From assembly GCA_051294905.1 (NCBI GenBank), contig CM119371.1, positions 12,030,001 to 12,094,000 on the forward strand: 64,000 nt of DNA, given 5' to 3'. This document shows, one piece after another, positions 1 through 23,648 of the stretch. The DNA comes from Botryllus schlosseri. Its lineage: Eukaryota. Made by a program: the position numbers and the translations under genes. Under the pieces are notes generated by a model. The model had not been told where the DNA came from, searched no databases, and worked only from the letters and a program-made list of their open reading frames with translations. The stretch's first letter is position 1; every line of letters starts with the position of its first letter.

Positions 1-1070
1 TGCCAACGCCTTCAGTTTGTGGACGATCGAAAAAATTTGCTCCCGATTTCGAATGTTTTCGACGCTTCGTAGAGCTAATATGATTCGGTTGTAAAGTTCA
101 GTTACCGTTTTGGGAGGAGGCTTGCTCGGATCCCTCCCCATCACGACTGCCGTTAGAATCAGGAAAACGGGTACTGAGACTAAATTAAGCAATCGCGGTG
201 ACATAGTTTCAATTTTTTGCCAGAGATTCTCTCCTTCATCTTTGAGTAAAAAGGCGAACAGTCTATGCGCGTCTTCCACAGTAAGACCATTCAGCGTAAT
301 GATGGTTTCGGGTCGCGCCATCGCTGGTAACTCCGAAACCTTGAATTCACGTGAAGCTACGTAGATCTTTACGTTACGGAGAATGTTACGGGATAGAATG
401 TTGTACATGACTGTCCAGGGGCTTGCTTTTTCAAACTTTTTTATTTTACTAGGAGTTTTCATATAATCCCAGCTAGCTTGATCAAGCCCGTCGAAAATTA
501 GAACTGCCTCGAATTGATGCCCATCTAGCCATTTGAATGCCTGATCCTCTTCAAATTCATTTTCGTAGACTCCACCGAATAAAAATTTTGACGGTTTAAT
601 TTTGCTTCCCACTTCAATGTCCTTCAATTCAATAAAATGTACCATTTTTTTACCGTAATAGGACGGATCATCATTCTGCTTAATTGTTGGTAATATACCG
701 AGAGTTTGTCTAGCTATTCTGCGTGTAAGTGTGGATTTTCCAGACCCAGCAGATGCCACAATCCCGGTTACACCAACTGCTTTTGATGAAAATAATTTTT
801 TCTTCTTCCAAATCGATGCCACTACGTCCTCAATTTCGATGTTTTTCGCTTGAATTCTGTCTTGCCGCAGAAATCCAACTTCCTTTGTCAGCTGAGTATG
901 GACATATCGACCTTTGTAATAATCGTTTACATCAACTTGTCGCATCTGCGGGTAAACTTCAAAGTCAGGTTGCTGAAGGTCTTCATGTCTGAAGTCATCC
1001 AAGATGTCAATGTTCGCGACATCCATAGTATTTTCGTTGCAAATTTGTATGAGGTTTCTGTCATTGATAT
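1..1070 (-). CDS. NACHT-domain (NLR-like) NTPase, large internal exon; continues beyond the window
   Basis: Open for 356 codons after a phase-1 acceptor (catttttcag, AG at 1071-1072). Translation includes Walker A GIVASAGSGKSTL (~730-765), Walker B AVLIFDGLDQ (~478-510), sensor-1-like IYVASR, and VPVFL and PKTVTELY motifs typical of NACHT/HD1. Absent from the ORF track because no stop lies in the window. Confidence 0.93.
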
Positions 1071-1356
1071 CTGAAAAATGAGATGTCGAGAGGATATATA
1101 TGTATTATATATAAAAATTTAATATCTACAAGTCATACAAGTTCATGATTATTCACGTCCCGTACGGTAATTTACCTGCGAAATAACGCGAGTAATAAAA
1201 TTAGTTGAGACTTTGGTATAGAATTTCTATAGGTGAAATTTATAACCCTACATAAATGGAAGTGATCATCCCCGCGTAAAGAAAACCAAGTTTTTTGACA
1301 GGTGTTCATAGTTTTTACCCACTGACAAGAAACCGGCGTCCCAATTTGTTTTAACC

Positions 1357-1795
1357 TAGGCTTACCATACGTCCTCTTTTAAGAGGATTTGTCCTCTTTT
1401 TTGACTTTTTTGAAAGTGTCCTCGGAGGACGCCGTTTTGTCCTCTTTTTTGAGATTTTGTCCTCTTTTTTGAAAATTTAGGTCAGAGTTAGAGCAAATTG
1501 CGAGTGATATGCCGAAAATTAGCACAGAAGTGACGGTCCGGCGGATCTTTCGGTGTGAAAAACGGTGAATTTAGCTCTGAGTGAGAAGATGACCTTTTTT
1601 TTTTTTAGTCATCCACCTGGCAATGTGGAGGAAAAAACGGTATTTTGAGGTCTGAGCGGAAGTGATGACCTTTTTTTTAACAGCTCACAATGTGGGAAAA
1701 ATTCACCGGTTTTTGAGAATTCTACTCCGGTTTTGCATCTTGCAAATTTCTGAAAAAGTGTCCTCTTTTTACATTTTCAAAATATGGTAAGCCTA
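1357..1795. mobile_element. hAT-type MITE (TAGGCTTACCATA family)
   Basis: TIR taggcttaccata...tatggtaagccta; 8-bp TSD ttttaacc; other copies at 15333-24858 and 43185-43532. Confidence 0.9.
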
Positions 1796-1983
1796 TTTTA
1801 ACCTAGGCAATAGGTTTTATCGGTCTTCAAGGTTTAACATAGTTGTCATCGCACATCTTTTGTGGCGTAATTTCCGACAAGTTATGCATTGGTGGATGTG
1901 CTGAGAGACAGCGCTCACGCCACCTATAATTCAATATCCATGTTGACGTATCTCATTGTGTGTGATTCCACGTCCCATATCAT

Positions 1984-3746
1984 CATAGGTGGTCAAAGTA
2001 GTCAAGAAAGCTACTCAAGTAGAAGTAGAAGTAGCTACGAAAAAATCTACTCAAGTACGAGTAGAAGTACTTCTTCCATAAGCAACCTAAAACTACTTGA
2101 AGTAGAAGTAGAGTTGACTGACTTTAAATCTACTCAAGTAAGTAAGTAGCTGTTAAAGCGATCGTAATTCGTTCACATGGATTGTCAAAAGTTGCAAATT
2201 AAAGCTATGCGAAAGGTGCCGAGCTTGATTCATATTGATGCATACCAGGAGGTATCCAAATTTCGACAGCATAAGTATTCGTCCGCATCATGGGATGAAA
2301 ATGATAGTATTGATATGGAAAGGCCATACTAATCCCATGTTTACTCGAACAACACGTTTTAGAAAACATCATGGTATGGCGCTCTACCCCATATTGTAAG
2401 GCCTGTAGTTTAGTCGAAGAGCAATATGGAGAAGTTGTTTTGAATACGGCGTAAACACTTTGTGTGATTAGTAAACGTTAATTAAAAATATGATGGACCG
2501 TACAAATGCCATATTGTGCAGCTTTATTTCCGGAAATTGAAGGCATTACTACACTTTGCTTTTATACTTCAACATGTATGTTATCAAGACATAAGAACTG
2601 ATATTAATTAGAACTCAAAGTATATGATACTGGGAATTGAAAGTGAAATATAAATACTACTTCTAAAAGCGGAACATGTATTTCATGTCTATAGACTGGA
2701 AAGTTTCGAAGGTTGGTATGCTAAATCAACTCTAATATACATTTTAATAATATATTCATATTAAAACCCGAAGCTTTTCGAGCTGACACTTTTCAAGGGC
2801 AATCGTCAGCAAATGGAGAATTCCAAAAACATGCATCTAGCTACATTGCATACAACCAATTATGACGTCATAGAAACAAACAACATGAAATACAGGCAAA
2901 CCGCGAGCGCAGCTAGTGGACAATTTTTAGATTCACTAAAAATTCCTTCTGCTGACACAAGCGCAGTCGGTGGATTTTAATATAAGTCGATTCCAGTGCA
3001 GACAGATGGAAATTAGTGCGGCCTCTACCTGATATCGAAAATCTTTCATCGCGATAGTTTTTAGCGCAAGTTGCATTCTCAGCCAAATGCTTGCCGATGG
3101 CAGAGTTCATAGCCATGGCCTGATTACGTTCTAGTATTCGGAGATCAGTTACGGCTGCGTCTTCGCGAGAGTCCAATATGCGTGATCTAATAACGATGGG
3201 GACATGTTGTTTGATGCGTTCCTGCAAGCGCTGAGTTGTTCTTCCCACGTACCGACAATCACAGTGGCACTTGAAATCATAGACTATATTGCTTTGGTAA
3301 AAAGCAGGAAGGACATCTTTGCGCGTTGCAGGAAGCAATTGTTTGGTGGTAAACACAACATTAGTTTTTACGTTATCGGAACAGCGATTTACAGCAGAAA
3401 TCAATTACCTAAATTATATTCACCGATACTTAGATGAAATCATACTGGCGTATCCACTGCGCGCGAAGCGCGACGAACATTTTTGGCTTTACTCAACTTT
3501 TATGAAAATTAAATGTTGATACTCCGTGAAAACAGCCCCGAAATTCCTCAGGCTATCTTCCTGATTGTAGGATTAAACTCCTTCTACTTGACAAACTGAA
3601 AATAGCGAAAAGTAAGTAAGTAGATAACAAAATATTACGAAGTAGAAGTAGTTAAAATCAGATCTACTCGAGTAAGCACCAGAAGTAGAGGAAAACTACT
3701 TGAGTACTTCGAAAAAGTAGAAGTACTTCGTTACTGACCACCTCTG
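1984..3746. mobile_element. hAT-type non-autonomous element (AGTAG-rich ends) containing a Penelope fragment
   Basis: Termini cataggtggtca...tgaccacctctg; 8-bp TSD catatcat at 1976-1983 and 3747-3754; related sequence at ~4107-4786 and 18466-18981. Confidence 0.8.
2760..3410 (-). mobile_element. Penelope-like retroelement 3' fragment (GIY-YIG endonuclease)
   Basis: ORF 2913-3404: NIVYDFKCHCDCRYVGRTTQRLQERIKQH...SAIGKHL...LESTYI, the GIY-YIG pattern of Penelope-like elements. Confidence 0.85.
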
Positions 3747-6700
3747 CATATCATTGACATTTCCATGAAAATGGCGTATAATCAAGTCCGTTACATGAGA
3801 TTTCCGAGTCAGCAAAATTGGATTCTGACTTCAGAAGACAAAGAGCTATTACGGATTCTGCCGCCAACTCTTATCAAGCCGTTACAGTCCACAAATGGAT
3901 CTAGTTTGTACAAAGGACCAGTGACGTGCGGTACAATGAGGCAGGTGAGGCTACTTGGTATGTTAGAGCTACTTGCATAGGTTGCATTGTCGTTTTTTGT
4001 GTCCTTTATGCTGTGTTAGACTGCAATACCTAGAACCCCTAATTAGGTATGTGATAGCTATATTCAACATAGCCTGCGTTGTCGTTGTTTGTGGTCAGTG
4101 GTGACCAGAGTTGGATCAATTACAATATTTAATTCAATTACAATTACAATTACTTCCTTGCATGTTTCAATTACATTACAATTACAATTACTCAATGCTA
4201 AAAATATGAAATTACAAATACAATTACAATTACTGATAAACATGTAATTAATTACAATTATAATTACAATTACAATTACTTTTAAACATGTAATTGATTC
4301 AGAAAAGAGGTGTTCTTTGACAACCGTAGCGACGTAATTAGCAACAATCTCAAGCTATTCATGTTTCATTCCTGATATGTAGAATACCCTTTAATTATAA
4401 GAAACTCGAACGTATTCGAACTATTCCTAATCATGAGTACTGAAAACTACAAGCACGGAAAAATATTTCAAGATTAGTATCGCGTTTCCTTATCAATACT
4501 ATCATTTTCATCCCATGATGCGGACGAATGCTTATGCTATCGAAAATTGGATACCTGCGCGTATGCATCAATATGAATCAAACCTGTCACCTATCACATA
4601 GCTCAATTTGCACCTTTTTATAATCCATCCAATCAGAATCGTTTTCACAGTCAGTCAATTCTACTTCTACTTCAAGTAGATTTAGGTTGCTTATGAGAGA
4701 AGTACTTCTACTTGTACTTGAGTAGATTTTTTGTCGCTACTTCTACGTCTACTTGAGTAGCTTTCTTTACTACTTTGTCCACCTCTGATAGTGGTAACGG
4801 CTGTTTATGGTGTTCTACGAACTACAAAGGTCATTTACACCTGTCGATATCTTTTATCAACACATCTGCCGTTCTGTAGCACAGTCCCTTGTAGATCGGT
4901 AACACACCGCTTACGCATATCAGATGTTCATGGATTTGAAGCAGGCTATTCAATCGACAGTATGCACTGTGTATCATAAAAGTTTTTACCGTAGTGACTT
5001 CATCATATTACTATGCAGTCGTAGGCGGGTGCGGCAATAAATTGGATTAACGAATGGTTCGTTGTTTAGCGATAAATTCAGATAAATTTACTTCAAAGCT
5101 AAATCGCGATGATATCACATAAAATGTTAAATTACTAGCTATGCCTGGTTCTATGATGTCAATAATGAATACATCGTAAAATTTACATGGACGGATATGT
5201 AAATTTACATTTTATCAGTGTGGCATCAATTTGAAGCTTACGGTACTGATTACAAAGGTATACATTTTTATTCTACTCATGACCCTGGAACCCCAAAAAA
5301 GTCAGCTACGCATTTTGTATTGTGACGGATGGAGTTTGAAATTGCGAGGTCTATAATACCGATGCCATCGCTTAGCAGCAAGTGTTTCCCTTTAACACGA
5401 GGAACCTGTCTCTGAAATCTAGCATCCAAGTCTTAACAGTTGGGCGCCCGACTGTCCAATGTCCATACGGTGTGGCAATGATGCCGTGTATTCTCATTAC
5501 AGTCTGAAAATGAGCAACATCGACGTCGATTTCCGTTGCTATAGACCAGGGGTCGGCAACCTTTTGCTAGTCACGGGCCAAATACCGAGTGCACAACTTT
5601 TTGGCGGGCCGTAATTTTTCTTGATACTATATTTAGCGCTCACGTCGGTTTAGTACCCTACATTGCTGCAATCTCAATCATACAAATCACAAAAAGGGCA
5701 AAACACATGTATTTACACTTCAACAACGCAGCATAAATGTGACACTTGGCGCAGCATGCTTTGTGAAAGATTTTCAACTTCTAATAACAAGTCAGATGAA
5801 GCAACAATCAAACCACATTCCAAATGGGCATTAGAATACGTGATCTTAGCTTGCTCTTCGTGAATTCCACTGTTGAAATATATTTTTCACATGCGTACGT
5901 GCTATCAAAAGTCGATACCATTTCTTTTGCATTGTTGGTCAAGCTGGGATAAAGACCCGTTTCAAGAACGTACTCTTTGTCAAAGACATACAGCGATATG
6001 CTCTTTGTATGAAATTTGTCCTTAAATTCAACTGCATCGCATTTCAAAAGGGCCCCTTTGAAATTTTCAGGCAACGGTATTGGCGCTCACATTAAACCGA
6101 GTACTGAGCAGTCAGAATATATTTTATACAGAACGAATGTCGGAAAAGCGGGTGGAAATTCAGTAATTAAATTTCGTATCACAGTTACAAAGGTATAGTG
6201 CTGGTACTAGGTTTACTCTCCGCCAGTATAGGAAAGTGAGCATAATTTTCTTTTTACTGTTGACATTCTCAGAGTCGCAGTTTTGTTTCGAATACGCCTC
6301 AACATCTCATGTGTTCACATATTTCTTTCTGAAGTCAATTTGTTAGATATGACGTTAAATGTACTACGAAAGCAAGATTAGATACCCATTGTCGATGACA
6401 AGATTATGAGTCGGCGATGTTTGTATTTTTAAGGAAAGTTGCTATTTCGTTTCTCAGTTCATACACTCGTGCAAGGATAGCTGCTCGACCTAATGTGCGA
6501 ACATGGCAGATATACAGGACATCGCCATATTGATTCTCTGCTTCTAGTAATATATGGGGTAGGCTAACTGTCGGTGATTAAGTTCGTGAGACAAAATCAG
6601 CTTTCCCCACTGTGTCCAAAACACTATTCACGTTTGTTGTCTTGGTGTACAATGTCTTCTGGTGAATTAAACTGCAGATGACTAACCTACGGTAGGGTTA

Positions 6701-6917
6701 CCATATGTCAGCAACCCAAATTCCGGTCACTCTTTAGCGCCCACTGGTGGATTTCAAAATGAGTAGTGACGTCACACTAGCAAAGCTTTGCTCATAGAGT
6801 CATTCACAAAGCAAGCTGCGTCAATTGTCACATATATTCTGTGTTGTTGAAGTGTAAAAATACATGTGTCTTCTGATTGGTATGATTGAGATTGCAGCAA
6901 TGTAGGATAATATATAT

Positions 6918-7927
6918 CAGGGGTCACCTACACGCGGCCCGCAAGGTCATATTTTGCGGCCCGCGACTTGATTTCAAATTTCGGAAAAAAGCTTAGAAAA
7001 CCATTTTGAAATGCTGAAATTGACTACAGTTTCAACATATTACTGTTGTTGTTGTTTCAAAATACGGCTATTCTTCTGTGCCCATCATCACTATTCCTCA
7101 CTAGCTTTGGCTTTGGCAATGTCAACATTCCATCGAGGGAGAATAACCAACTGATATGAATGTGCTGGGCCTATTGCCTTGACGTGCAATGGCCAAAACA
7201 CTGCCAAGACCGAAACGTTTGGAAAACGGTATAGGGCAGTGGTTCTGAAACTGCTGGGCGCGCCCCTCTTGTGGGGGTGTGAAAGCATCTGAAGGGGGTG
7301 CGGAGCTGCGGTCAACTGAAATTTTTTTTCGCGCTCTGCGCGATTTACATTAATGTCATATTTTCTGTATAGTCCGGAATTCATATAATAGAATTCTCTC
7401 ATCAATTAACAATCATAACCTTCCTCGCCATTAAACTATCCGTTACGATTGCTAGCATATGGTTGCATATTTTGTGATATGACGGTCAGGGGGAGCGAAA
7501 TTTCTCAGTATCATAAAGGGGGCGTGTATAAAAAAAGTTTGAGAACCACTGGCTTAGGGATTCCCCGCAAGGTCAAGCTTAACGTGGAGATGGTCTTACA
7601 GATATTAACGTATCTCGCTAGCCCCAATAGCGATTCCTTAGTCGCTGAAAAGCGTTTCCAGGTATCGTGCACAGCTCAGAGCTCAAAATAAAATGAGCTT
7701 GATGATAATGATTTTTGTTGTATTTGTATTCCTTTAATAAAATATTACTTCTTTTGTGGTCACTATGCCCCGCATTGTTTATGTTAGGTAGCACGGCGTT
7801 GTACTGACGTTGGGTTTTTAAACGTTGTTGCGTAGTTTATATCGATATTGAATAGAATACATGCGGCCCACGGCCGCTACGAAATTTGAAAAGTGGCCCG
7901 CCACCTATTTTGAGTTGGCGACCCCTG
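6918..7927. mobile_element. hAT-type MITE carrying an internal MITE (7237-7551)
   Basis: TIR caggggtc...gacccctg; TSD atatatat; inner element cagtggttct...agaaccactg; inverted relative at 51786-52627. Confidence 0.8.
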
Positions 7928-8060
7928 ATATATATCGAAGTGAGCGTAAAATATAGTACTAAGAAAAATTCCGGCCCGCCAAAATGTTGTACACCCGAAA
8001 TTTGGCCCGCGACTAGCAAAAGGTTGCCGACCCCTGTCATAGACCAGAGATGGTTACGAT

Positions 8061-8334
8061 CATTGATGGGCACAGTCCGGTTCAGGAGCCGGAGCAGGAT
8101 TTCATTGCTTTTGTACCTGGCCGGAATGGATCCGGATTTTGAATTTGCAGTGACGGTCGGATTTTAGCCGGATTCTGTTGCTGCAATATGATTAATTAGC
8201 ATTATTCTGGCTGGATTTTTCGGATTCCGAACTGGTCCTTCCACCAGCCGGATTTTTTCGGACTGTGAATTTTCATTTGCCAGCCGGATCCGGATAGATT
8301 CGGATCCCGAAATTTAGGAATCCACCCATCTCTG
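8061..8334. mobile_element. CCGGAT-rich MITE
   Basis: Termini cattgatggg...cccatctctg; near-identical 8-bp TSD gttacgat/gtcacgat. Confidence 0.6.
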
Positions 8335-9835
8335 GTCACGATCCGGTTCAGGAGTATGTGGCTGTGTGTTGTGTAACCATGACCGAAAGCACATGTTTTC
8401 AGCCCCCTCCCACCCAAATAAACAATAATTTTGAGCCCACACTATAGGGTAATCTATTCAACTTGCCGGTGCGCACCAGGGAGCTTTATAAAAAACCCAC
8501 ATCCAGTGATTTCCCACCTTTTATGGTCGCGACTCTACCTGAAAGTGCTCCGTGGTCCAGATCAATATTTGACGAGCTGATTACTAAAAGAAGTCAACAC
8601 CTTTGCCCAGACTTACTCACGGGCTATTTTGGAAGCTGATTACGTTCAACATATTTGCAAGCCCCAGAATAAAGGCAAACGACCCCCCGTTTGGAACCAC
8701 TATCTTTGAATAGAGCATTTGAACGGCCTTAACGATCTCTAGGAATATACCGCTCTCATATAATTGCGATTACAATTAGGCTTATTCCAGTAAATGAAGG
8801 TTGTTTTTATATATATTTTATTGCAGTTTTTGCGAGGGTGGTAGTCTTCATAATAAAATCAATAAATGTGACAGTAAATCGCGCGCAGCGCGAAGAAAAA
8901 TGGCATGCATCAGCATAAATATTCCCGAAAAAATATTATTTTTGTGCTGATTTACGAAAAAGTTATGAGCCTACGTCAAGTCTTCAAAATTCCGGACATT
9001 TGACATATTTTTGAAATTCCTCCCGGACGCTAGTTGGAACAGTGAAATTCCGGACATGGCCGGGAAATTCCGGACGTATGGCAACCCTAACCTACGGAGG
9101 CTAGTTATCTAAAATGAAACGGAAAGTTTGAGATTTTGTCATTGCGTCTGAGATGTTCCAAGCGTTTTTGAAGCAGAGGAACCGCACCTTTAATGTCGCA
9201 CCCTATCAGAGTGGCAACCCCTTAAAAAGATTGGTATGCCTATGGTTGCGCGATACATCCGCTCGATAAGCACTAGTCTAGTCTACTCTACATACATTCT
9301 CCATCTCCTACTTTTAGTACGAGATAGGCTACTAATCAACAGCCTTCACACTGCATATGCAGTGTCGTACGAAAAGCCCAGATGAAGCAAGTAAAGTCGA
9401 GCTTATGAAAATCGGCTGCAACTGACTATGACGAGGACGCGTGCGATAGGAAGTGAAAGACGCGGATGAGAGTGTGACTGAACGTAGTCCGAAAAATAAT
9501 CGTTCCTCAAGCAAAGACCAAGCAAAAGACAATATTCGTGATCGGGCGCAAATGACCTTATCGGCGATAAGCGCCAAAAATTGTTCAATAAATACAAATA
9601 CAAATACAACAGCCTTCGCATCAGTTTTATGGCGTAACAATAGACTAATACGGCGTAGGATACTTATCGTAGCAATGCCGCATTCTTACCAAGCAGTGCT
9701 GCGGGCCGTAGGTTGCCGACCCTTGCTATAGACCCCACTGAAAACTCAGAATCAATCAGTTAATCATCAGGAAATCCCGGTTTATATGCGAGATCAAGTG
9801 GACATCGTAATCTGACATGTTTTATGTATCAGTTT

Positions 9836-10441
9836 CAGGGTTATAATGACTCGAGTCATGAGTTGACTTGTGTCCGACTCGTGTGACTCGAGTCACGATT
9901 TTCTGTTGACTCGACTTGACTCGGGTCATTTTCTCAAAATACGGAAATGACTCGACTCGACTCGAGTCAATTTGTGTCTTGACTCAACTTGGACTCGAGT
10001 CATTGTGCATGACTCGAACCAAGTCATATCACTCGAGACTCAGACGGCAAAGGCCGACATTTCATTGTAGTTTCGAAAAATAGTCAAGTAACCGCACTAT
10101 TGGGATATCGCCTGTTGGTACTGGTACTTGAAAATGCGACCAGAAACTGCTCACAGTGAGGAAAATTAGTATATTATGAAGGCGAACCATTCCATATCAC
10201 CAAACAGAGTTATAAAAATTGGGTTTAACAAGAGTTTAACTGGAAACTGAGCAGTCAACACAATGACGTGGACTCGAACTCGAGTCATAATACCATGACT
10301 CGGATTCGACCCTCTGCTCACTGACATGGACTCGAACTTGACTCAGCGGTGAATTGAAAATGACTCGACTTGACTCGAGTCAAAACTATAAAAGTTAGAT
10401 TGATTTGTGACTTGGAGCCTTGTGACTTGGTTACAACCCTG
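9836..10441. mobile_element. GACTCGAGTC-rich MITE
   Basis: TIR cagggtt...aaccctg with arrays of the GACTCGAGTC palindrome; related fragments at ~26400-26656, ~36989-37180, ~41810-41941, ~60319-60640. Confidence 0.75.
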
Positions 10442-10923
10442 ATCTGGTTACCTAGAATGACTTGCGGAAAATGCGCGACAAATCTTTGTACACCAACGTC
10501 ACCAAGTCCTACCCATAGAAGTCGAGGAAAGATTGGTAATGTTTGGTCGTTCCGTAACCGAATCACTTATCTGTAGCATCTGCACTAAATCCACCATCAA
10601 TAACGCCACGTTTAGTCAGAATCGAAGATAGAAATGCGACGTGACACAGCCATCGACGGGGGAACAGTACCAACGTCATAGTGCTTGAACGGCATATCAC
10701 GGAATTATTAAAACATGTAAATTTCAGCGAACTTCGCATGATTGGACAACCGAGACTGTTAAAACTACTCTATCTGCAAAGCTGCCTTCGCCTGTGTTAT
10801 GTGTTGGGATTTCTGGTGATAGAAACTCGAACGATATATTTGTGAGATATCGATGATTGCTAGTAATACGGGTGGTAGACTATTCGGCGCTTCTCCGATA
10901 AACCCGCAAGATCAAAATTTATA

Positions 10924-11476
10924 CACGGAAAAATACATTCGCTTTCGTGTTGGGATTGGGATGAAATAGGAGCTGTGGGTGCTGGATATTAGTGTTGGAA
11001 GTGGGTTAGGGTTGGGGTAATGATGAAGGCATCCCAATATTCGGGTTTTGGGGTGGGAGATATTACGGTTGTGGGGGAGGGATATTAGAGTTGTGAGTGG
11101 GACATATTAGGGTGTAGTGGCGGGATATTAGGGTTGTGAGTGGGAGATATTAGGGTTGCGGGATAGGGATATTAGGGTTGTGAGTGGGAGATATTAGGGT
11201 TGGAGGATGACGGATGTCAGGTTTGGGGAATAAAATATATTAGGGTTGTGGGTTCCGGACGCTAGTTCGAGGATTTTAGCACGCCTAACCCTAATATACG
11301 TCATTCACACAACCCTAATATCTGTCATCTCGTAACCCTAATATATCACAATCCTAATATATATCACCAACAACCCTAATGTTGGGATACCCTAAACCCA
11401 ACCCCGACCATAAACCTAACCCACTTCAATCCTAATATTCCGTACCCAACACGAAAAAAGAATTGATTTTTCCGTT
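10924..11476. mobile_element. Foldback MITE built from TTAGGG-containing repeats
   Basis: Termini cacggaaaaa...tttttccgtt flanked by TA; left arm (gatattagggttgtg)n, right arm (aaccctaatat)n. Confidence 0.7.
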
Positions 11477-11612
11477 TACAAATGCTGATGTGTTTGATCT
11501 CGGGGGTATATCGAAGAGCGCCGGAGGCCTGCATCACATCTTTATAATTCTTATAATCGCCAAAGGGCATTGCGAATTTGATATTGATGTGGAATGTTTG
11601 GGCAGATATTAC

Positions 11613-11639
11613 CTTGGCTTTGTGACGGGGCATATGAAT
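11613..11639 (-). CDS. Predicted 27-nt micro-exon of the NACHT gene (NSYAPSQSQ)
   Basis: atattgcag acceptor and AAG|gtaata donor; phase 1-1; 88-nt upstream intron; joins in frame to the exon starting at 1070. Confidence 0.55.
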
Positions 11640-11727
11640 CTGCAATATTGGTCATGGAACGACCATGACCGGTGTATTTATATAATGAGCTTCACTATTA
11701 TACCGCATATTGCAGGATTACACTCAC

Positions 11728-11835
11728 TTTTTTTTGCAGGACTCTTCACATTAATCTGATGTCCTGCCACAACGTTGACCGTGCTGTTTATGATCTGCAG
11801 ATTGACGTGTCCACCTTCTGCCAGCGTTGTAGATC
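11728..11835 (-). CDS. Predicted exon 2 of the NACHT gene, RHIM-like motif (GSTTLAEGGHVNLQIINSTVNVVAGHQINVKSPAKK)
   Basis: ttttcttgtgtctcag acceptor and gtgagt donor; 108 nt, phase 1-1, open frame; a same-length paralogous exon lies at 59457-59564. Confidence 0.72.
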
Positions 11836-12016
11836 CTGAGACACAAGAAAATATAGTAACGGTCCGCGATATTGCGATGTATATTATTAAAGAGATAATG
11901 GATTGTTAAACCAGAATAGGTCAATGTAAACGTCTCAGCGTAACATTTTAAAACGGGTTTATATTGATAACATTGATAAAATGAATATGAATCAAAATAT
12001 AGGAGTATTTACTCAC

Positions 12017-12089
12017 CGCTTGTCCCGGGTGATAATGATGAAGGCACATCAGTGACACCAGAAGCTTGTGTTTGCCTCTTTTCCGACAT
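12017..12089 (-). CDS. Predicted first coding exon of the NACHT gene (MSEKRQTQASGVTDVPSSLSPGTS-G)
   Basis: ATG at 12089 with an in-frame TAA shortly upstream; 73 nt ending in phase 1 at a perfect G|gtgagt donor. Confidence 0.65.
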
Positions 12090-15968: not shown

Positions 15969-15998
15969 TCATAGTTATTTCTGCGACGAATATATATC

Positions 15999-17726
15999 AT
16001 GGAAGCAAGTATATTGAAGCTTCTGGAGAAGCAGCAGGAAATGATGGCGGAACAACGCGCACAGCGTAAAGAAGAGCTGGAGCAGCAAAATGCTCGGCAC
16101 AGAGACGATTTGAAACAACAAGCGAAGCAGCAAGAGATTATGGCGCAACAACAAGCGAAGCAGCAAGAGATGATGGTGCAACAACAAGCAAAGCATGACG
16201 AAGCAATGGCAAAAGTCATGACAGAGATGGCGCAATTGACGCAGAGGTTGAGTCCCGGTGCGTCAACATCTGAAGCTACCGCTCCCAAGTTTGATTCATT
16301 TGTAAAATCAAAGGAGAAATGGGACCAATATCTTCAGCGATTCAACCATCACCTAGCAATTTACGGCATTTCCAATATGGAGAAGAAAAGAGCGTGTCTA
16401 CTCTCATGGGTCGGACCTGAAACCTACTCGCTTCTACGTAATTTGTTTGGTGCTGCTGATGTCAGTGCGCAAACCTTCGACGCGTTGACTGAGAAGTTGT
16501 CTTCACACTTCACAGACTCAATTCATGTGCAAGCAGCCAGGTACGAATTTTACAATTGCAAAATGCAGCCGGGACAATCGTACGCCGATTGGATCGCTAC
16601 TCTACGCGGAATCTCCAAGGATTGCAACTTCACATGCTCAAGAGATGGCTGTGATCAAAGCTACGTTGATGAGCTAATGCGCGATCTCATCATTAAAGAA
16701 ACGCCGCACGCGGATGTGAGACGGCATTGTCTAACACAAACCAATCCATCCCTTGACGATGTTCTCAAAGTAGCTGCAACATACGTGAGAACGCTGGAAA
16801 CCGATAGGGTTATCCAAGGCTAGAGTAGCGGTAAAGACACTTCCGTCGTCAACAAAATGACAGGAAGTTATCAGAAGGGGAGAAAACCTTCAAAATCCAT
16901 CCAAGGCAACTTCCCGGAAAGACTGAAATCCTGCAGCCGCTGTTTCATCGATCACCAGAGAAAAGACTGTCAATATCGACATGCAGTATGTCAGAAATGT
17001 GGTCTTAAAGGTCATATTAAGCCTGTGTGCATGTCTACCAAACCTAGTATCACGCAACAGGTCACATCCGTCAATTTCTGCTCAGTGCCACTCCTCTCCT
17101 TCGACATCGATCAACTATATCGACGCGTAGGAAACCAGGTCTGGATCAACTCCAGCATCAACGGCATTCCGTTGCCGACACAGTGGGACACTGGTGCACC
17201 CTCCGTCATGGTGGGATTGACTGGTTACAAAACTTTGGGCTCTCCGAAACTCTCAGCATACCATTGCTCCTTCGTAGCGTATGGCGACAAACCACTGAAA
17301 GTGAAAGGTATTTGCACTGTAACCGTGCAGGTGGGCTCGGAAGTTCGAGTTGGCTTAAAATTGGTAGTTCTCGACGAACACCGTGGGCAAAACATTTTTG
17401 GTCTCGATTGGAGCGATGCTTTCTCCATGACCGCTAAGGGAACGTCTGCTTTGGATGCAATTTTCTCGCAGATGGTCAAATCGCAATCATGTAATACTAT
17501 TGACATTTCTGATTCGAACGACAAATTGGTATCTTTTCAGTCCAAATTTCCCTCCGTTTTCTCTAATGTATTAGGACGATGCACCAAGACAAAGGTGACA
17601 ATTCACTTGAAACCTAATGCCAAGCCCGTGTTCAACAAGCCACGTCCTTTGCCTTTCGCTAGGCAAATCGCTGTTCAAACCGAATTGGATAGATTAGTCA
17701 ATCAAGGTATTCTCGAACGAATCAAT
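15999..17726 (+). pseudogene. gag: Gypsy gag + protease (in-frame TAG at 16821-16823)
   Basis: Coiled-coil N-terminus, capsid-like region, zinc knuckles CSRCFIDHQRKDC and CQKCGLKGHIKPVC, protease WDTGA; ORFs 15999-16823 and 16857-17759 share one frame. Confidence 0.9.
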
Positions 17727-20478
17727 AGGCCTTTTGCAGGACTTCGATCACGTGACTAGATACGCATAGCAACAACAAATTGGTTAGCAAGCTACTTTCT
17801 CGCGCACCTGCTTCAGTGCTAAATTTCGCATAGTGTACTGTTGATTTCTGGTTGTAAACGTTTCGGAAATTTGTTGTAGAAGTCATCAGAGATTCACCTA
17901 TGCTAGATGTCAATCATGTACAAAGCATTTCGAATGATATCGTCAGAATTACGCAGAAATCCATCGGTAACGTAGTCGTATTACGGTACTCAACTCTGAT
18001 CATATGTACTTAAATTTATGCATTTGAAGTAAAGCGATTGGCTTATATTCTGGTAAGAGTATTTGTTAGTTCAAGCAGTACTATTTGTCTGTTGTGGAGC
18101 CTGATTTTGGATGGAAGATATGACTGAAGCAGCCGGGACCCGCAAGGATCAGGATATACTGTCTGCTGGTTTGGGTGCTGGCGTGCTGCTATAAAACAAA
18201 TGTCGCTGAACACATCGGAAGTATCTTTTGGGAGAACCTGCCGTCAAGACTAAGCAAATCAGTGCACTTTATTGTTGCCTTATACAATCCCAATTTTATT
18301 ACAACTACTTCGCAACTGCGATTGAAGTGGATTTGGCAAATCACACTCGATTTTGATAAATAGTTGATGTCACATATGTGCGATATTTAGCGAACTAAGG
18401 GAAGTAACTATCATATAACTCTTAGAGCAGCTCAAACGCAGTGACAAGATCGGTCATCCTATACCCAGACGTGGTCAACGTGGTCATTGTTGGGAACCGA
18501 GTAGAAGTAATGCCTTAATTTATACTCCAGTACAAGTAGCACTAATTACTTCCAGGACATGTCCAAAGTACTTCAAGTGGAAGTAGAAATGAATTTCTGA
18601 AAAGCGGTCAAGAAATTCGTTACATGAAGTAGATTTGGTTGAGGGTCACTTAGTTTTAGAAATTGATGCCATGTGACAACTGTAAACATTGCATGTTGCA
18701 TCTTCTTGATCAACGCAAAAGGGTGATGACACCACAAATAAGTGCAATTTTCAAAAATTAATTTAGTTACCGTGGTACTGGGGCTATTTTGCCCAGTTGT
18801 TATGACAACCTCACGCTTGAAGGGGATGCAATCATGCGCCAAAGCTACTTTCTAGTTGACAAAATCCCAAACCTGACAAAAAAGTACTACCTAAAAAGTG
18901 TCAAGTAGAAGTGGAAGTAGCCTAAACTCATAATGACGCTAGTACTCAGGTAAAATAGTACTTCGTTGCTGACCCCCTCTGTGTATTGGCTCATCCAACT
19001 CAGAAACATCCTCTAAAGACGACTAACATTGTTTCTTTCGCATTGACTCCGTAATATTCTGAACTTATGATATTCTTTGATTCATTGAATTTACAAATAA
19101 ACTTGTAAAGAAGATCGATTTATTAATTTTTGTGCATTCGATACCCAGAGCATAAGAAATAGTTGAAGAAAAATGGATGTTAACCTTATCAAGTTCAATA
19201 ACTGCCGAGACTGTTATGCCTATGTATTTTCCTCTACCTCCATAGCCACTTGTCTAGACATATTCATAGCATCCACGGAAGAGCGCTTGTCTTGCTGTAC
19301 ACAAATGAAATATCATTTTCAAAGCAGACATCAACATCGGGAAAGAAGTTCAGGACAGTTAGTCAGTGGTCAGATCATCTGCTGACATTTTCTGTTGGCA
19401 TGAAACCACGCTGCCTTCCACCGCATGACCAAATTTTATGTGGTGATAATAATTGGCTCCAGGTTGAATTCTTGACGAGGGCATCATCAATTTCTTAGTT
19501 GCCTATGTTCGGCTCTCTTGGGATAATCCATCAGATCATTATTCCGTATGCATGTGGTATAGCCATATGTCTTGAAACTCAAGATATTTGCACTGTGCCA
19601 TAGAGTGAAGTAATCCAATCCAGGCAATCAATCAAGTAATCCAGGCCCCGGGACAGTTTGTTTCACCCTCAATTGGAGCTGATGATCATTTTCCTTCGGG
19701 TAGTGGCACTTGGCAGCATGACAGAATGATCAATAACTTGTAATATAGGTGTAGAGGTCTAAACATTTTGAATTGTTTAACTGAGAAGTCATACAATAGC
19801 TTAGGATATTTAATATATATATGGTATGTAGCACATTGCATGAATTCATAACACATCAACGTACTGGCACTGGCAGTCATTGTCTCTTAGGCTTAAAAAT
19901 AGCAGTATCCTATATTGCAATCGATATCAATCATCAAAATGCTGCAATGATTACCAACTACCGCTACAATACAACTATAGTATACTATCCACACCTAACT
20001 TAATGCTGCAATAAATATCACGCAGTCAATGTCCTGCAATGTCGAATTTTGTGTCATAAAATCATAGTTGACTACCAAATAACGGCTACAATGTCGATCA
20101 TTTTGACGCAAGGAGTTTACATAGTTCATGAATCAAAGACATCCAACATATTTGAATCCTTGCGCATCTCCATGACACTTGCGAACGTTTACAGCCCGAA
20201 AACAATAATATACTGTATCCGAAATACGGCTACGTTAACGACGGATTTCTGCGTAATTCTCACGATATCATTCTATGTGCTTTGTACAGGATTGACATCT
20301 AGCATAGGTAAATCTCTGATGACTTCTACAACAAATTTCCGAAACGTTTACAACCAGAAATCAACAGTACACTATGCGATATTTAGCACTGAAGCAGGTG
20401 CTCGAGAAAGTAGCTTGCTAACCAATTTGTTGTTGCTATGCGTATCTAGTCACGTGATCGAAGTCCTGCAAAAGGCCT
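17727..20478. mobile_element. DNA transposon with ~260-bp TIRs, probably ISL2EU/PHIS group, inserted in pol
   Basis: aggccttttgcagg...cctgcaaaaggcct; removing it with one AT restores GILERINYSDWAAP; faint minus-strand remnant MEVEENT...IRLTS at ~19175-19261. Confidence 0.8.
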
Positions 20479-20480
20479 AT

Positions 20481-22083
20481 TACAGTGATTGGGCAGCACC
20501 AAATGTTGCCGTCACTAAATCAAATGGATCAGTACGCATTTGTGGTGACTTCAAAGCATTGAATCAACAGATTCAGATAGATCAACATCCCCTGCCCTCC
20601 TTGGATGAAATCCTTCACAAGTTACAGGGTGGTTGTATTTTCACGAAAATTGATCTTGCCGATGCTTATTTTCAGCTAGAATTGAATGATGATGCGAAGA
20701 ATTTGTGTGTCATCAACACGCAATTCGGTCTATTCCGTTATCGACGCATGTGTTTCGGAGTCGCATCTAGTCCCGCCAATTTCCAACGCTGCATTGATGC
20801 CATGATCGCCGGCTTACCCGGTGTTGCTAGTTTTATCGATGACATAATCGTTACTGGCATTGATGAACGCGACCATTTTCGCAACTTATCGCTACTCTTT
20901 GAGCGCCTCACCGAGTACGGTTTCACCGTCAACTTCGCAAAATGTGAATTTTTCAAAAGTAGTATCGAGTACCTTGGTCACATAATCGACAAGGACGACA
21001 AACGCCCGTCTCACAAATCCGTTGAAGCAATCAAACAGTTGCCTAAACCTCAGGATGTTCACCAGCTACAGGCATTCCTGGGCAAAGTCAATTATTATCG
21101 CATGTTTATTCCTAATTTCACGAACAAAGCCGCTGCCTTGTACCGTCTTCTTCAAAAAGACGCGAAATTCATTTGGAATACGAACTGTGACGCAGCTTTT
21201 CGCATTCTCAAAAACGACGTAATCGACGCTACGCAGTTAGCTCATTATGATGTAAACAAGCAGCTCATTTTGTCAACGGATGCTTCTCAATTCGGAATCG
21301 GCGCTGTCCTCTCAATCGAGCACAATGGCGAAGAGAGACCGATCGCGCACGCATCAAAAACGCTTTCGGATTCGCAAAAATCCTACTCTCAAATAGAGAA
21401 GGAAGCTCTGTCAATCATTTACGGAGTCACTAAATTTCGTCAATTCTTGTATGGTAGAAAATTTACGCTCGTGACGGACCACAAACCGCTTTCAGCTATT
21501 TTCTCGCCGGACAAGAAAATTCCCGTGATTACAGCGCAACGCTTACAGCGATGGGCACTAACGCTCATGGCTTACCAATACGATATTCGCTATAAACCGA
21601 CTAATCAGCACGGAAACGCCGACGGTTTATCTCGTCTACCAAAGGGTCCAGACCCTGAGTTTGACGAACTGGAAATTCGTGAAAACGCGGAGATCGTTCA
21701 CGCTAATAATATTGCATTCGATGGCTTACCGTTAACTCGCAATGAAATTCGCGACGCGACGCTGACGGACAAAACCATGAAAATAGTAAAATTATCTGTC
21801 ACTCATGGTAATTGGAATCCAAAGACGCACATTGATGATTTTTCTTGGTTTTCGACTCGCAAACATTCGCTCTCTCTGCACGAAGACATAGTCATGCTCA
21901 ATATTGATGGTTTTCAGCGCGTAGTAATTCCGCAGTCACTTCGCTCGCGAGTCTTATCATTGTTGCACGAAGGACATTGGGGTATCGCGAAAATGAAGCA
22001 GATGGCTCGACGTTACATCGCATGGCCTTCCATTAATCGCGACATTGAAAATCTCGTTAAGAGTTGCGACGCTTGCCGTAAGG
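20481..22083 (+). pseudogene. pol: Gypsy pol: RT, RNase H and integrase zinc finger
   Basis: WAAP..VRICGDFK, KIDLADAYFQ, ASFIDDII, TDASQFGIGAVL, YSQIEKEAL, LHEGHWG...CDAC. Confidence 0.95.
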
Positions 22084-23640
22084 CAAGGGTCGGCAACCTA
22101 CGGCCCGCGGGCCGGATCCGGCCCGCCAAGCGAAATCGTCCGGCTCGCGACATAATAATTAGTTATCACAAGAATACGGCCCGCCGTTTCATAATCAGTT
22201 TCAATCTGCAGTGCAGCAATGCATGAAAAAAATGCGGCATTGCTACGATATAATAGTAGCCTACATCGTATTAGTCCATTGTTACGCCATAAAACGAAGG
22301 TGGTTGAAGTAGGAGATGGAGATAGGCTAGACTGGATCAGTGCTTATCAATCGGGTGTGTCTCGCAACCGAAAGGTGTTCCATACTTTTTTAAAGGGTTT
22401 ACCACTCTAATGGGGTGTGACAATAAAGTTGTTCTTCCTTTGCTTCAAAAACGCATGGAACACTGCAGACGCAAAGACGGAATCTCAAACTGCTCAATTA
22501 TAGATAACTAGCCTAGCCTCCGTATGTTACTTAGCCTATCTATAGTTTAATTTTCCAGAAGGCATTGTGAGCCAAGACAAAAAACCTGAATAGTGTTTTG
22601 GCCACAATGGTGAAAACTATTAATATGATATTACTTGAAGCAGAGAATCAATATGGCGATGTCATGTAGGCCTATATCTGTCATGTTCGCGCATTAAGTC
22701 AAGCAGCTATGCTTACACGAGTGTATGAACTGAGAAATGAAATAGCAACTTTCCTCGAAAACACAAATATCGTCGACCCATAATCTTGTAATCGAAAATG
22801 GGTATCTCATCTTGCTTTGCTGGTACATTTAACGTCACACCTGAACAAATTGAATTTGCAACTTCAGGGGGAAAACAACTAAATACATGAGATGTTGAGG
22901 CGCATTTAAAACAAATCTGTGACTCTGGAAATGTCAACAGTACAAAGAAAATTATGCTCACTTTCCTATACTGGAGGAGAGAAAACCTAGTACCGACACT
23001 ACATTTCTAACTGTGATACGAAATTTAACTGCTGAATATTCACCCGCTTTTCCGACATTCCTTCTCTATAAAATGAATTCTGACTATTCAGTACTCTGTT
23101 TAATGTGGACGCCAATACCATTGCCTGAAAATTTCAAATAGGCCTTTCTGAAAGGCGATGCAGTTGAATTGAATGCCAAATTTCATACAAAGAGCATATC
23201 GCTGCATGACTTTGACAAAGAGTAGGTTCTTAAAATTGGTCTTTATCCCAGCTTGACCAACAATGCAAAAGAAATTGCATCGATTTTTGGAAGCACGTAC
23301 GCATGTGAACAATAGTTTTGAACAATGAAATTCACGAAGAGCAAGCTAAGATCACGTATTTCGGACGTCCATTTTGAATAGGGTCTGATTTTTGTTTCAT
23401 CTGACTTGTTACCAGAAGTTGAAAACCTTTCACAAAGCAAGCTGCGTCAATTGTCACATTTATTCTGTGTTGTTGAAGTGTAAATACATATGTCTTCTGA
23501 TAGGTATGATTGAGATTGCAGCAATGTAGGATAATATACCGAAGTGAGCGTAAAATATAGTACTAAGAAAAATTCCGGCCCGCCAGAAAGTTGTACACCA
23601 AAAATTTGGCTCGCGACTAGCAAAAGGTTGCCGACCCCTG
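22084..23640 (+). mobile_element. hAT (Charlie/Buster-like) element inserted in the integrase
   Basis: TIR caagggtcggcaac...gttgccgacccctg; perfect TSD ccgtaagg; remnant FGSTYACEQ*F*TMKFTKSKLRSRI; removal restores CDACRKVMKAP. Confidence 0.92.
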
Positions 23641-23648
23641 CCGTAAGG

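What the first reader, a model, noticed from the sequence alone, without database searches (positions are those of the whole stretch)
11613..12089. NLR whose predicted N-terminus is a short RHIM-like amyloid motif instead of a death-fold domain
Seen: three small minus-strand exons with canonical splice sites, all phase 1, join in frame to the NACHT exon at 1070. The product begins MSEKRQTQASGVTDVPSSLSPGTSGSTTLAEGGHVNLQIINSTVNVVAGHQINVKSPAKKNSYAPSQSQDINDRN. That is about 70 aa of S/T/G/P-rich sequence around one segment rich in beta-branched residues and N/Q, with no recognisable CARD, PYD or DD. Known: RHIMs (RIPK1/RIPK3) and the cryptic RHIMs of Drosophila PGRP-LC and Imd follow a hydrophobic-x-I-x-N-S/C...V-x-x-G pattern, and fungal (NWD2/HET-S) and bacterial NLRs signal through short N-terminal amyloid motifs. 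Inference: this may be an animal NLR that signals by amyloid templating. The core is VNVVAG rather than canonical (I/V)Q(I/V)G, so at best it is a divergent motif.
Basis: partly seen in the sequence, partly recalled or inferred. Interest (0 to 1): 0.85.

Follow-up and report, generated by a model that had tools for sequence, protein, structure and literature searches.

The report
NLR genes with amyloid-like N-terminal motif
This gene belongs to a family of at least a hundred animal NLR-type genes that start with a short, conserved, strand-prone motif where a death-fold domain usually sits; the motif may signal by amyloid-like stacking as in fungi and bacteria, but that is untested and this copy shows no expression.

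Summary
Splice sites, phase 1 and the quoted translation all check. Exon 2 encodes a real, selected motif. The same phase-1/phase-1 exon occurs at least 100 times in this 495-Mb animal genome. The family consensus is SATLAEGENVN(Q/L)xFx(N/K)SxVNVVAGDQIN, and median dN/dS is 0.22. A NACHT exon lies within 20 kb downstream on the same strand for 55 of 100 copies, against 2 of 100 upstream and 0 on the opposite strand. A conserved ATG exon puts the motif at about residue 26. No death-fold exon was found.

It is not a RHIM by any test run. The Pfam RHIM model hit 0 of 29 peptides. The IQIG-type tetrad is in 0 of 76 peptides. No RIPK or HET-s chain matched in PDB.

No non-NLR carrier of the motif was found. 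Four RNA-seq runs put no reads on this copy. Exon 3 is not conserved. The exon that follows the NACHT exon in paralogs is absent from the 20 kb downstream.

Amyloid-type signalling is the best analogy, at about 0.4, and is unproven. Kajava et al. 2014 already described a RHIM-NACHT architecture in amphioxus.

The parts
12017..12089 (-). Exon 1: start codon at 12089 and a 24-codon acidic, Ser/Pro-rich leader (MSEKRQTQASGVTDVPSSLSPGTS), ending in phase 1 at |GTGAGT.
   Evidence: sequence, donor; a homologous exon with a conserved ATG (M-A-E-G-G-x-D...SLSPG.SG|GTRAGT) lies within 1.5 kb upstream of the motif exon in 19 of 30 paralog loci. In most of these the frame opens only about 6 codons before the ATG.
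11728..11835 (-). Exon 2: the motif exon, a phase 1-1 cassette of 108 nt. It encodes G-STTLAEGGHVNLQIINSTVNVVAGHQINVKSPAKK. Compared with most paralogs it is 10-13 residues shorter at its 3' end.
11613..11639 (-). Candidate exon 3: a 27-nt, phase 1-1 mini-exon (NSYAPSQSQ). It is unsupported.
   Evidence: Splice-like sites are present. No paralog DNA match covers it and no RNA reads cover it. Exon 2 joined directly to the NACHT exon is also in frame (...AKK-N-INDRN).
1071..11612 (-). Long intron of 10.5 kb, or 10.66 kb if exon 3 is skipped, filled with repeat and transposon debris, including a GIY-YIG ORF at 2916-3404.
   Evidence: Motif-to-NACHT distances in paralogs range from 133 nt to tens of kb.
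1..1070 (-). NACHT exon. The acceptor TTTCAG| is at 1070. The exon runs off the window start and continues 342 nt in L009 (G000:C1:12029659-12030000). It contains Walker A GSGKST and Walker B LIFDGLD. The open frame is 482 aa. It ends at a conserved AG|GT phase-1 donor.
   Evidence: At least 114 paralogous exons were scored (211 candidates), and 110 of the 114 have no stop.

Best explanation
Shown. The locus is one member of a very large paralogous family of NACHT (NLR-type) genes in an animal genome, with at least 100 motif exons and at least 114 NACHT exons. Their 5' end is built from two small phase-1 exons: an ATG leader exon and a cassette exon. The cassette encodes a 30-48-residue motif, SATLAEGENVN(Q/L)xFx(N/K)S(S/T)VNVVAG(D/N)QIN..., which starts at about residue 26. 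That is the place where animal NLRs normally carry a CARD, PYD or death domain. The motif is protein-coding and under purifying selection. It is rich in Asn, Gln, Gly, Ser and alternating Val/Ile/Phe. It has no predicted fold as a monomer.

Inferred. The motif most likely works like the NLR-associated amyloid signalling motifs of fungi (NWD2/HET-S) and filamentous bacteria (BASS). Ligand-driven NACHT oligomerisation would bring several N-terminal motifs together. They would stack into a cross-beta (beta-arch) nucleus. That nucleus would then recruit or template other molecules carrying the same motif, either an undiscovered effector or adaptor, or further NLR paralogs.

The motif is not a member of the RHIM family by sequence, so the claim is 'works like', not 'is a'. 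The window's own copy may be silent or truncated.
For: Gene model and N-terminal position: splice sites, phases, translation; ATG exon conserved in 19 of 30 loci. Closest paralog: in L012/L041 the motif exon lies 404 nt upstream of its NACHT exon.

Family and link to NACHT: 100 of 100 scored genome hits to the 35-aa peptide are true copies by inspection. A NACHT exon lies within 20 kb downstream on the same strand for 55 of 100, upstream on the same strand for 2 of 100, and on the opposite strand for 0 of 100. Within 60 kb the figure is 68 of 100. Divergent motif subgroups on C3 and at C1 11.4 Mb also precede NACHT ORFs.

Coding constraint: mean pN is 0.158 against pS 0.472. Median dN/dS is 0.22. 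pN is below pS in 399 of 406 pairs. Third-position variability is 0.28, against 0.12 and 0.09 at positions 1 and 2.

Motif make-up: L4, A5, N20 and G24 are at least 90% conserved in 64 sequences. Positions 10/12/14 and 19/21 alternate hydrophobic residues, and N, Q and G flank them. No autonomous fold: AlphaFold pLDDT is 62 and 58 with no secondary structure. No death-fold or TIR exon lies nearby.

Precedent: Kajava et al. 2014 (PMC4262963, passages and section 4) report RHIM motifs at death-fold positions in amphioxus immune proteins, including a motif-NACHT-repeat protein, BF82280. In fungal and bacterial NLRs with N-terminal amyloid motifs the same motif sits on the effector (passages of 10.1101/2020.01.06.895854; abstract of PMC4344463 in the listing).
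Against: No carrier of the motif other than NLR 5' exons was found. All 100 hits have the cassette-exon layout. Three 'unpaired' copies showed nothing recognisable in the 10 kb downstream. The defining receptor/effector pairing of amyloid signalling is therefore missing so far.

No sequence link to any known amyloid motif was found. Pfam (RHIM, HET-s, sigma/PP models included in Pfam-A) gave 0 of 29 relevant hits at E<=10. A PDB profile search gave only chance MthK matches at E about 0.3. The RHIM tetrad is in 0 of 76 peptides.

This copy deviates from the family. It lacks the second 'IVYNITG' segment and has G-H for E-N and H for D at conserved places. It drew zero RNA-seq reads in four runs of 1.1-1.9 Gb sampled. 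It has no homologue of the post-NACHT exon within 20 kb downstream, although paralogs have that exon 2.5 and 6.1 kb away.

Nothing here measures fibril formation.
Confidence: 0.4

Rival explanations
1. The motif is a conserved short linear or beta-strand segment that acts without amyloid formation. It could bind a folded adaptor by beta-augmentation. Alternatively it could pack against the NACHT or sensor part of the same molecule as an autoinhibitory or oligomer-interface element.
For: Strong purifying selection and an N-terminal position fit any binding motif. No effector-side copy of the motif was found. No similarity to any known amyloid motif family was found.
Against: A 28-residue conserved core with Asn, Gln and Gly at fixed places and alternating hydrophobics is longer and more patterned than typical linear motifs. 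The position and architecture match NLR-associated amyloid motifs (passages).
Confidence: 0.3
2. The window's copy is a silent, decaying or truncated paralog. The family may be functional, but this locus makes no working receptor, so its odd N-terminus has no consequence.
For: All four exons have zero depth in four RNA-seq runs. Every read laid elsewhere on the 13.5 kb fits only partly, as repeats do. No homologue of the post-NACHT exon lies in the 20 kb downstream, whereas paralogs have it at 2.5 and 6.1 kb. The motif exon is shortened and altered at conserved positions. The intron is full of transposon debris.
Against: All open frames are intact. The NACHT frame is 482 aa without a stop, and Walker A and B are present. 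All splice sites are canonical. Only 6-13 in 100 of each run's reads were sampled, and immune genes are often silent until induced. Family introns can exceed 20 kb.
Confidence: 0.3
3. The motif is a true but very divergent RHIM (a cRHIM-type 'VxxG' core). It cross-seeds with RHIM proteins such as RIPK1-like kinases of the same animal.
For: This copy reads I-I-N-S-T-V-N-V-V-A-G, against I-Y-N-S-T-G-I-Q-I-G of human RIPK1 as printed in the supplement of PMC4262963. V..G is present in 59 of 76 motif peptides, and a 2026 review describes the cryptic RHIM as VxxG (passages of PMC13506858). Kajava et al. found many RHIM proteins in amphioxus.
Against: Pfam RHIM hit 0 of 29 at E<=10 and gave no hit on this copy. 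[IV]Q[IVL]G and G-phi-Q-phi-G, the shared signature of RHIM, PP and BASS3 (passages), are in 0 of 76 peptides. No RIPK or HET-s chain appears in the PDB profile search. V..G is too loose a pattern to discriminate. The I-x-N-S-T match is absent from the family consensus (F-x-K/N-S-S/T).
Confidence: 0.1
4. The three small exons and the NACHT exon at 1070 are not parts of one transcript at this locus. The 5' module would be an orphan left by rearrangement or transposon insertion.
For: The exons are 10.66 kb apart with transposon fragments between them. No RNA evidence exists. 32 of 100 motif exons had no listed NACHT exon within 60 kb.
Against: The strand, order and phase agree with the family layout. 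55 of 100 motif exons have a NACHT exon within 20 kb downstream, and several gaps are 9-12 kb. The NACHT list was cut off at 114 of 211 candidates scored. No other minus-strand coding exon was recognised between the two.
Confidence: 0.1

Closest known systems
[quoted passage not shown]
   Same: An animal STAND/NACHT protein carries a short, unstructured, amyloid-type motif at the N-terminal place usually held by a death-fold domain. It was proposed by sequence analysis only (passages and section 4 read).
   Different: Their motifs were found with a RHIM profile. The motif here fails the Pfam RHIM model and lacks the tetrad. Their alignment (Figure 1A) is not held, so identity with this family could not be checked. 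The taxon of this genome was not determined. The copy number (at least 100) and the phase-1 cassette exon are not described in the parts I read.
NWD2 / HET-S of Podospora anserina and other fungal NLR-associated amyloid motifs (HRAM, sigma, PP)
   Same: A short motif at the extreme N-terminus of a NACHT protein, with unstructured flanks. The proposed mode of action is the same: oligomerisation nucleates a cross-beta fold (abstract of PMC4344463 in the listing; passages).
   Different: In fungi the same motif sits on the C-terminus of an adjacent effector gene. No effector-side copy was found here. The sequences do not match. The fungal systems are experimentally proven and this one is not.
BASS1-10 motifs of Bell-domain/NLR gene pairs in filamentous bacteria (Dyrka et al. 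2020, preprint 10.1101/2020.01.06.895854)
   Same: Many unrelated motif families share one architecture, a motif at the N-terminus of an NLR. This shows that such motifs need not resemble RHIM (passages).
   Different: They are prokaryotic and defined by receptor/effector pairs in adjacent genes. That pairing is not seen here.
RHIM of RIPK1, RIPK3, ZBP1 and TRIF, and the cryptic RHIM of Drosophila PGRP-LC, PGRP-LE and Imd
   Same: A short N/Q/G/V-rich homotypic motif in animal innate immunity. This copy shares I-x-N-S-T with human RIPK1 and fits V..G.
   Different: There is no (I/V)Q(I/V)G tetrad and no Pfam match. The known carriers are kinases, adaptors and receptors, not NLRs.
Vertebrate NLRs (NLRP1, NLRP6, NLRP7, NOD2)
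   Same: NACHT plus winged-helix module. A paralog's NACHT exon matches these chains at E about 1e-4. Pfam gives NACHT and NOD2_WH.
   Different: The N-terminal effector is a PYD or CARD in vertebrates and a 30-48-aa motif here. C-terminal LRRs are not confirmed for this family.

Membership tests
RHIM (Pfam PF12721) | Match to the family profile at or above its cut-off (20 bits) | tested here: not met
   The window peptide has no hit at E<=10. 0 of 29 paralog peptides hit RHIM at E<=10. The genome-wide scan gave a best score of 17.7 bits, and none of the 3 matches lies at a motif exon.
RHIM (Pfam PF12721) | Core tetrad (I/V)-Q-(I/V/L)-G, within the G-phi-Q-phi-G signature shared by RHIM, PP and BASS3 (passages of 10.1101/2020.01.06.895854) | tested here: not met
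   0 of 76 distinct motif peptides carry either pattern. The core is V-N-V-V-A-G-(D/N)-Q.
RHIM (Pfam PF12721) | Sequence relatedness to solved RHIM or HET-s amyloid cores | tested here: not met
   The profile of 29 peptides against all PDB chains gave only MthK and BamA chance matches at E 0.3-1.2.
NLR-associated amyloid signalling motifs (functional class: HRAM, sigma, PP, BASS) | Short motif (about 20-30 aa) within the first tens of residues of a NACHT/NB-ARC protein | tested here: met
   The motif starts at about residue 26, after a conserved ATG exon. A NACHT exon lies downstream.
NLR-associated amyloid signalling motifs (functional class: HRAM, sigma, PP, BASS) | The same motif on a separate effector or adaptor protein, typically at its C-terminus | tested here: not met
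   All 100 genome hits have the 5' cassette layout with an upstream acceptor (96 of 100) and mostly a phase-1 donor. None ends a coding region.
NLR-associated amyloid signalling motifs (functional class: HRAM, sigma, PP, BASS) | G/N/Q-rich pattern with alternating hydrophobic residues, unstructured as a monomer | tested here: met
   Column counts. AlphaFold pLDDT is 58-62 with no secondary structure.
NLR-associated amyloid signalling motifs (functional class: HRAM, sigma, PP, BASS) | Forms cross-beta fibrils and templates its partner | not testable with these tools
   This needs ThT, EM or fibre diffraction, or a prion or DAmFRET assay.
NLR (NACHT-LRR receptors) | NACHT NTPase with Walker A and B, followed by a winged helix | tested here: met
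   PF05729 at E 6.5e-12 on the window exon. GSGKST and LIFDGLD are present in the sequence. NOD2_WH is found in paralogs.
NLR (NACHT-LRR receptors) | C-terminal leucine-rich (or other) repeat sensor | tested here: inconclusive
   The NACHT exon ends at a conserved phase-1 donor. Paralogs have a next exon ending in an LRR-looking stretch, but Pfam gives no family for it at E<=10. No repeat exon was found among 141 ORFs downstream. This copy has no such exon within 20 kb.

The most novel reading that the evidence does not exclude
The motif is a new, lineage-specific family of amyloid signalling motif, unrelated in sequence to RHIM. It has been spread by exon shuffling, as a symmetric phase-1 cassette, onto a hundred or more animal NLRs. 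It would convert NACHT oligomerisation into prion-like templating of a still unknown partner. That would be the first large NLR-amyloid signalling system in animals, parallel to those of fungi and filamentous bacteria.
Probability: 0.3. Interest if true: 0.8.

Novelty: new variant of a known kind. Interest (0 to 1): 0.55.

Why it matters
Short amyloid motifs on NLRs are established signalling devices in fungi and filamentous bacteria. A 2025 paper lists about a thousand NLR-associated cases from fungi, bacteria and archaea and names none from animals (passages of PMC12261475).

In animals amyloid signalling is known from RHIM kinases and adaptors and from the insect Imd pathway, not from NLRs. 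The one computational pointer is the amphioxus observation of 2014. My five literature searches found no experimental follow-up.

A family of at least 100 animal NLR genes with a selected, exon-encoded, non-RHIM motif at the effector position would matter in three ways. It would give a directly testable case. It would widen the set of NLR effector modules in animals. It would bear on whether NLR-amyloid coupling is ancient or arose repeatedly.

If the motif proves to be an ordinary binding peptide, the result is still a useful annotation of a large uncharacterised NLR subfamily.

Tried and rejected
1. Complex prediction, four copies of the 35-aa motif (collected): 'no answer', score 0.02. This is neither support nor evidence against.

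2. The look-up of sequencing runs: no RNA holder listed. I laid raw RNA runs of the same species label instead.

3. The search for homologous proteins with the NACHT exon, 'longer': one weak hit. With the 64-sequence motif alignment, 'longer': none. The collection seems to lack spliced models of this animal.

4. The search of protein representatives with the motif profile: 12 hits at E<=0.001. Eleven are short unspliced ORF fragments of the same exon type on 0.9-2.7 kb contigs without names (8 of them looked up). One is a bacterial repeat protein, a false hit.

5. ESM Atlas: nothing usable.

6. Earlier-findings look-ups: nothing on this genome or on animal NLRs.

7. Search for the C-terminal sensor: 141 ORFs of 33 aa or more downstream of this gene and of paralog L041 gave no repeat family.

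8. Partner search: 10 kb downstream of three unpaired motif exons gave no domain.

10. Taxon: the contig sizes suggested amphioxus. A GFP-family scan found nothing and is insensitive for split genes. The taxon is left open.

11. An HMM-HMM comparison with RHIM, HET-s, PP and BASS alignments was not run.

12. Internal pseudo-repeat in the 48-aa version: considered by eye only, with no clear repeat.

Full report
**What is in the sequence**

- Exon 1 is 12089-12017. It begins with ATG and ends at |GTGAGT.
- Exon 2 is 11835-11728, with CAG| before it and |GTGAGT after.
- Exon 3 is 11639-11613, with CAG| before it and |GTAATA after.
- A large exon starts at 1070, after TTTCAG|.

All junctions are phase 1, and the joined translation is the quoted MSEKRQ...DINDRN. 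The large exon carries a NACHT domain (Pfam PF05729, E 6.5e-12) with GSGKST and LIFDGLD. It runs off the window and continues for 342 nt in the adjoining genome stretch, giving an open frame of 482 aa.

The window lies in a 495.5-Mb animal genome of 219 contigs. I did not determine the taxon. The contig sizes made me think of amphioxus, but a GFP-family scan found nothing and is insensitive for split genes.

**The motif exon is real and belongs to a huge family**

A six-frame search of the genome with the 35-residue exon-2 peptide returned 100 matches, which is the cap. I read all 100.
- The 30 best loci all have an AG acceptor at the same codon. 29 of the 30 have a GT(A/G)(A/G)GT donor in phase 1.
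- Of the other 70, 66 have the acceptor and 54 pass a strict donor, length and no-stop test.
- The consensus of 64 copies is SATLAEGENVN(Q/L)xFx(N/K)S(S/T)VNVVAG(D/N)QIN, usually followed by (N)K(I/V)VYNIT.AEGEA..P..Q. L4, A5, N20 and G24 are at least 90% conserved.

Over the 29 ungapped core codons of 29 copies, mean pN is 0.158 and mean pS is 0.472. Median dN/dS is 0.22. pN is below pS in 399 of 406 pairs. Third codon positions vary 2.3-3 times more than first and second positions. This is a protein-coding exon under purifying selection, not a repeat that happens to be open.

**It sits at the N-terminus of NACHT genes**

The NACHT exon also has many paralogs. There were 211 candidates, 114 were scored, and 110 of those 114 have no stop. 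Within 20 kb of a motif hit there is a listed NACHT exon:
- downstream on the same strand in 55 of 100 cases;
- upstream on the same strand in 2 of 100;
- on the opposite strand in 0 of 100.

Within 60 kb the downstream figure is 68 of 100. Both lists are truncated, so the true association is probably higher.

In the closest paralog the motif exon lies 404 nt before its NACHT exon. Divergent motif subgroups also precede NACHT ORFs. Examples are ATLAEADQVSQNFENTTVNVIAGDQTNITIN on contig C3 and ALAQGHHVNQEFVNANVNVVAGNQ at C1 11.4 Mb.

An exon homologous to exon 1 (M-A-E-G-G-x-D...SLSPG.SG|GT) lies within 1.5 kb upstream in 19 of 30 loci. Its ATG is conserved, and in most loci the frame opens only about six codons before it. 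The motif therefore starts at about residue 26 of the protein.

Pfam found no CARD, PYD, death, DED or TIR domain on the exon peptides. It also found none on 82 minus-strand ORFs of 40 aa or more between the exons and 4 kb upstream.

**What is weak at this particular locus**

- Exon 3 has no counterpart. None of the 42 DNA matches extends past query position 356. The frame holds without it.
- Four RNA-seq runs of the same species label (1.1-1.9 Gb sampled each, at least 97% identity) gave zero depth on all four exons. Nearly every read laid elsewhere on the 13.5 kb fits only partly, as repeats do.
- The NACHT exon ends at an AG|GT in phase 1 that is conserved in paralogs. Paralogs have a next exon 2.5 kb (L041) and 6.1 kb (L121) further on. 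No homologue of that exon lies in the 20 kb downstream of this gene.
- This copy's motif lacks the second segment and departs from the consensus at three conserved places.

All open frames are intact, so the copy is not obviously dead. It may still be silent or truncated.

**Is it a RHIM? No, by every test I could run**

- The Pfam RHIM model gives nothing for this peptide or for any of 29 paralog peptides at E<=10.
- The same model scanned over the genome peaks at 17.7 bits, under its 20-bit cut-off, and not at motif exons.
- A profile of the motif finds only chance matches in PDB and no RIPK1, RIPK3 or HET-s chain.
- The tetrad (I/V)Q(I/V/L)G and the signature G-phi-Q-phi-G are present in 0 of 76 distinct peptides. 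The BASS preprint names that signature as shared by RHIM, PP and BASS3 (passages).

Two loose resemblances remain. This copy's I-I-N-S-T-V-N-V-V-A-G resembles I-Y-N-S-T-G-I-Q-I-G of human RIPK1, as printed in the supplement of Kajava et al.. That match belongs to a subgroup and not to the family consensus. The 'VxxG' description of cryptic RHIMs (passages of PMC13506858) is met by 59 of 76 peptides, but it is too permissive to mean much.

**How it most likely works**

The anatomy is that of the NLR-associated amyloid signalling motifs of fungi and filamentous bacteria (abstract of PMC4344463; passages):
- a short motif at the extreme N-terminus of a NACHT protein;
- flanked by low-complexity sequence;
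- rich in Asn, Gln, Gly and Ser with alternating hydrophobic residues;
- no fold of its own (AlphaFold pLDDT 62 and 58, no secondary structure).

By that analogy, NACHT oligomerisation would crowd the motifs. They would nucleate a cross-beta stack, and the stack would recruit further motif-bearing molecules. I give this about 0.4.

The main gap is the partner. In the known systems the same motif sits on an effector. Here every one of the 100 hits looks like an NLR 5' cassette. Three copies without a listed NACHT exon showed nothing recognisable in 10 kb.

The main rival is a non-amyloid binding or regulatory peptide, at about 0.3. The rival that this copy is silent or truncated (about 0.3) is compatible with either mechanism for the family.

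**What is known already**

[quoted passage not shown] The RHIM sits at positions usually held by CARD-like domains. They note that BF82280 has the motif-NACHT-repeat architecture of fungal NWD2. The idea of an animal NLR with an amyloid-type N-terminus is therefore in print as a computational observation.

My searches found no experimental test of it. A 2025 paper lists the roughly thousand NLR-associated signalling amyloids as coming from fungi, bacteria and archaea (passages of PMC12261475).

What seems additional here:
- the motif fails RHIM criteria;
- the copy number is at least 100;
- the motif is encoded as a symmetric phase-1 cassette exon;
- there is measured purifying selection.

Whether this family is the one Kajava et al. 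saw cannot be decided from what I could read.

**Verdict**

The N-terminus is a conserved short motif in place of a death fold. 'RHIM-like' is not supported. Amyloid templating is plausible but untested. I classify it as a new variant of a known kind, with interest 0.55.

Noticed in passing
window 15975-24559 (+): A Ty3/gypsy-type LTR retrotransposon. It has gag, aspartyl protease, RT, RNase H and integrase ORFs (Pfam RVT_1 5.8e-26, RT_RNaseH 1.7e-33, rve 2.5e-09). The ORFs are split over several frames.
   Followed up: partly
window 2916-3404 (-): A 163-aa ORF inside the long intron has a weak GIY-YIG match (E 8e-4, below the Pfam cut-off). It may be the remnant of a Penelope-like element; that name is recalled and was not tested.
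   Followed up: no
window 11037-11345: Tandem arrays of 22-, 44- and 87-nt units containing TTAGGG-like cores, followed by the complementary TAACCCTAA-type array. They lie just 3' of candidate exon 3, inside the intron.
   Followed up: no
window 1357-1411, 9349-9384 and 9544-9578: Short segments collect hundreds of RNA-seq reads that continue into unrelated sequence on both sides (loose ends). These are fragments of repeats expressed elsewhere, not transcription of this locus.
   Followed up: no
L019 (G000:C1:11762288-11765374), minus strand: The 5' module is duplicated in tandem. A second motif exon (FATLADGENIYQNFINSEVKVVAGDEIHGNK...) lies 959 nt after the first. It is preceded by an exon-1-like frame that lacks the ATG. 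This could mean two motifs in one protein or alternative 5' ends.
   Followed up: partly
L051, L062, L088, L118 (G000:C1 40.1-40.8 Mb, 39.4 Mb and 30.7 Mb): In this motif subgroup no donor matched my pattern. In L051, L062 and L088 the frame also stays open past the motif (…EGEASDVHEGLCNDRLFNSK…) to the end of the fetched stretch. The exon may be longer in these copies or fused to the next one.
   Followed up: no
L127 (G000:C9:9163843-9163890, +): A 58-aa open frame ends ...LILLHSTRIQIGRNNFIESL. It has a canonical-looking IQIG core. It is the third-best Pfam RHIM match in the genome, at 15.9 bits, below the cut-off. It may be a true RHIM or chance.
   Followed up: partly
L044 (G000:C1:1148860-1156859): A P-element/THAP-type transposase fragment (Pfam Tnp_P_element, 3.9e-05) lies just downstream of a paralog's motif exon. 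No NACHT exon follows within 7.5 kb.
   Followed up: no
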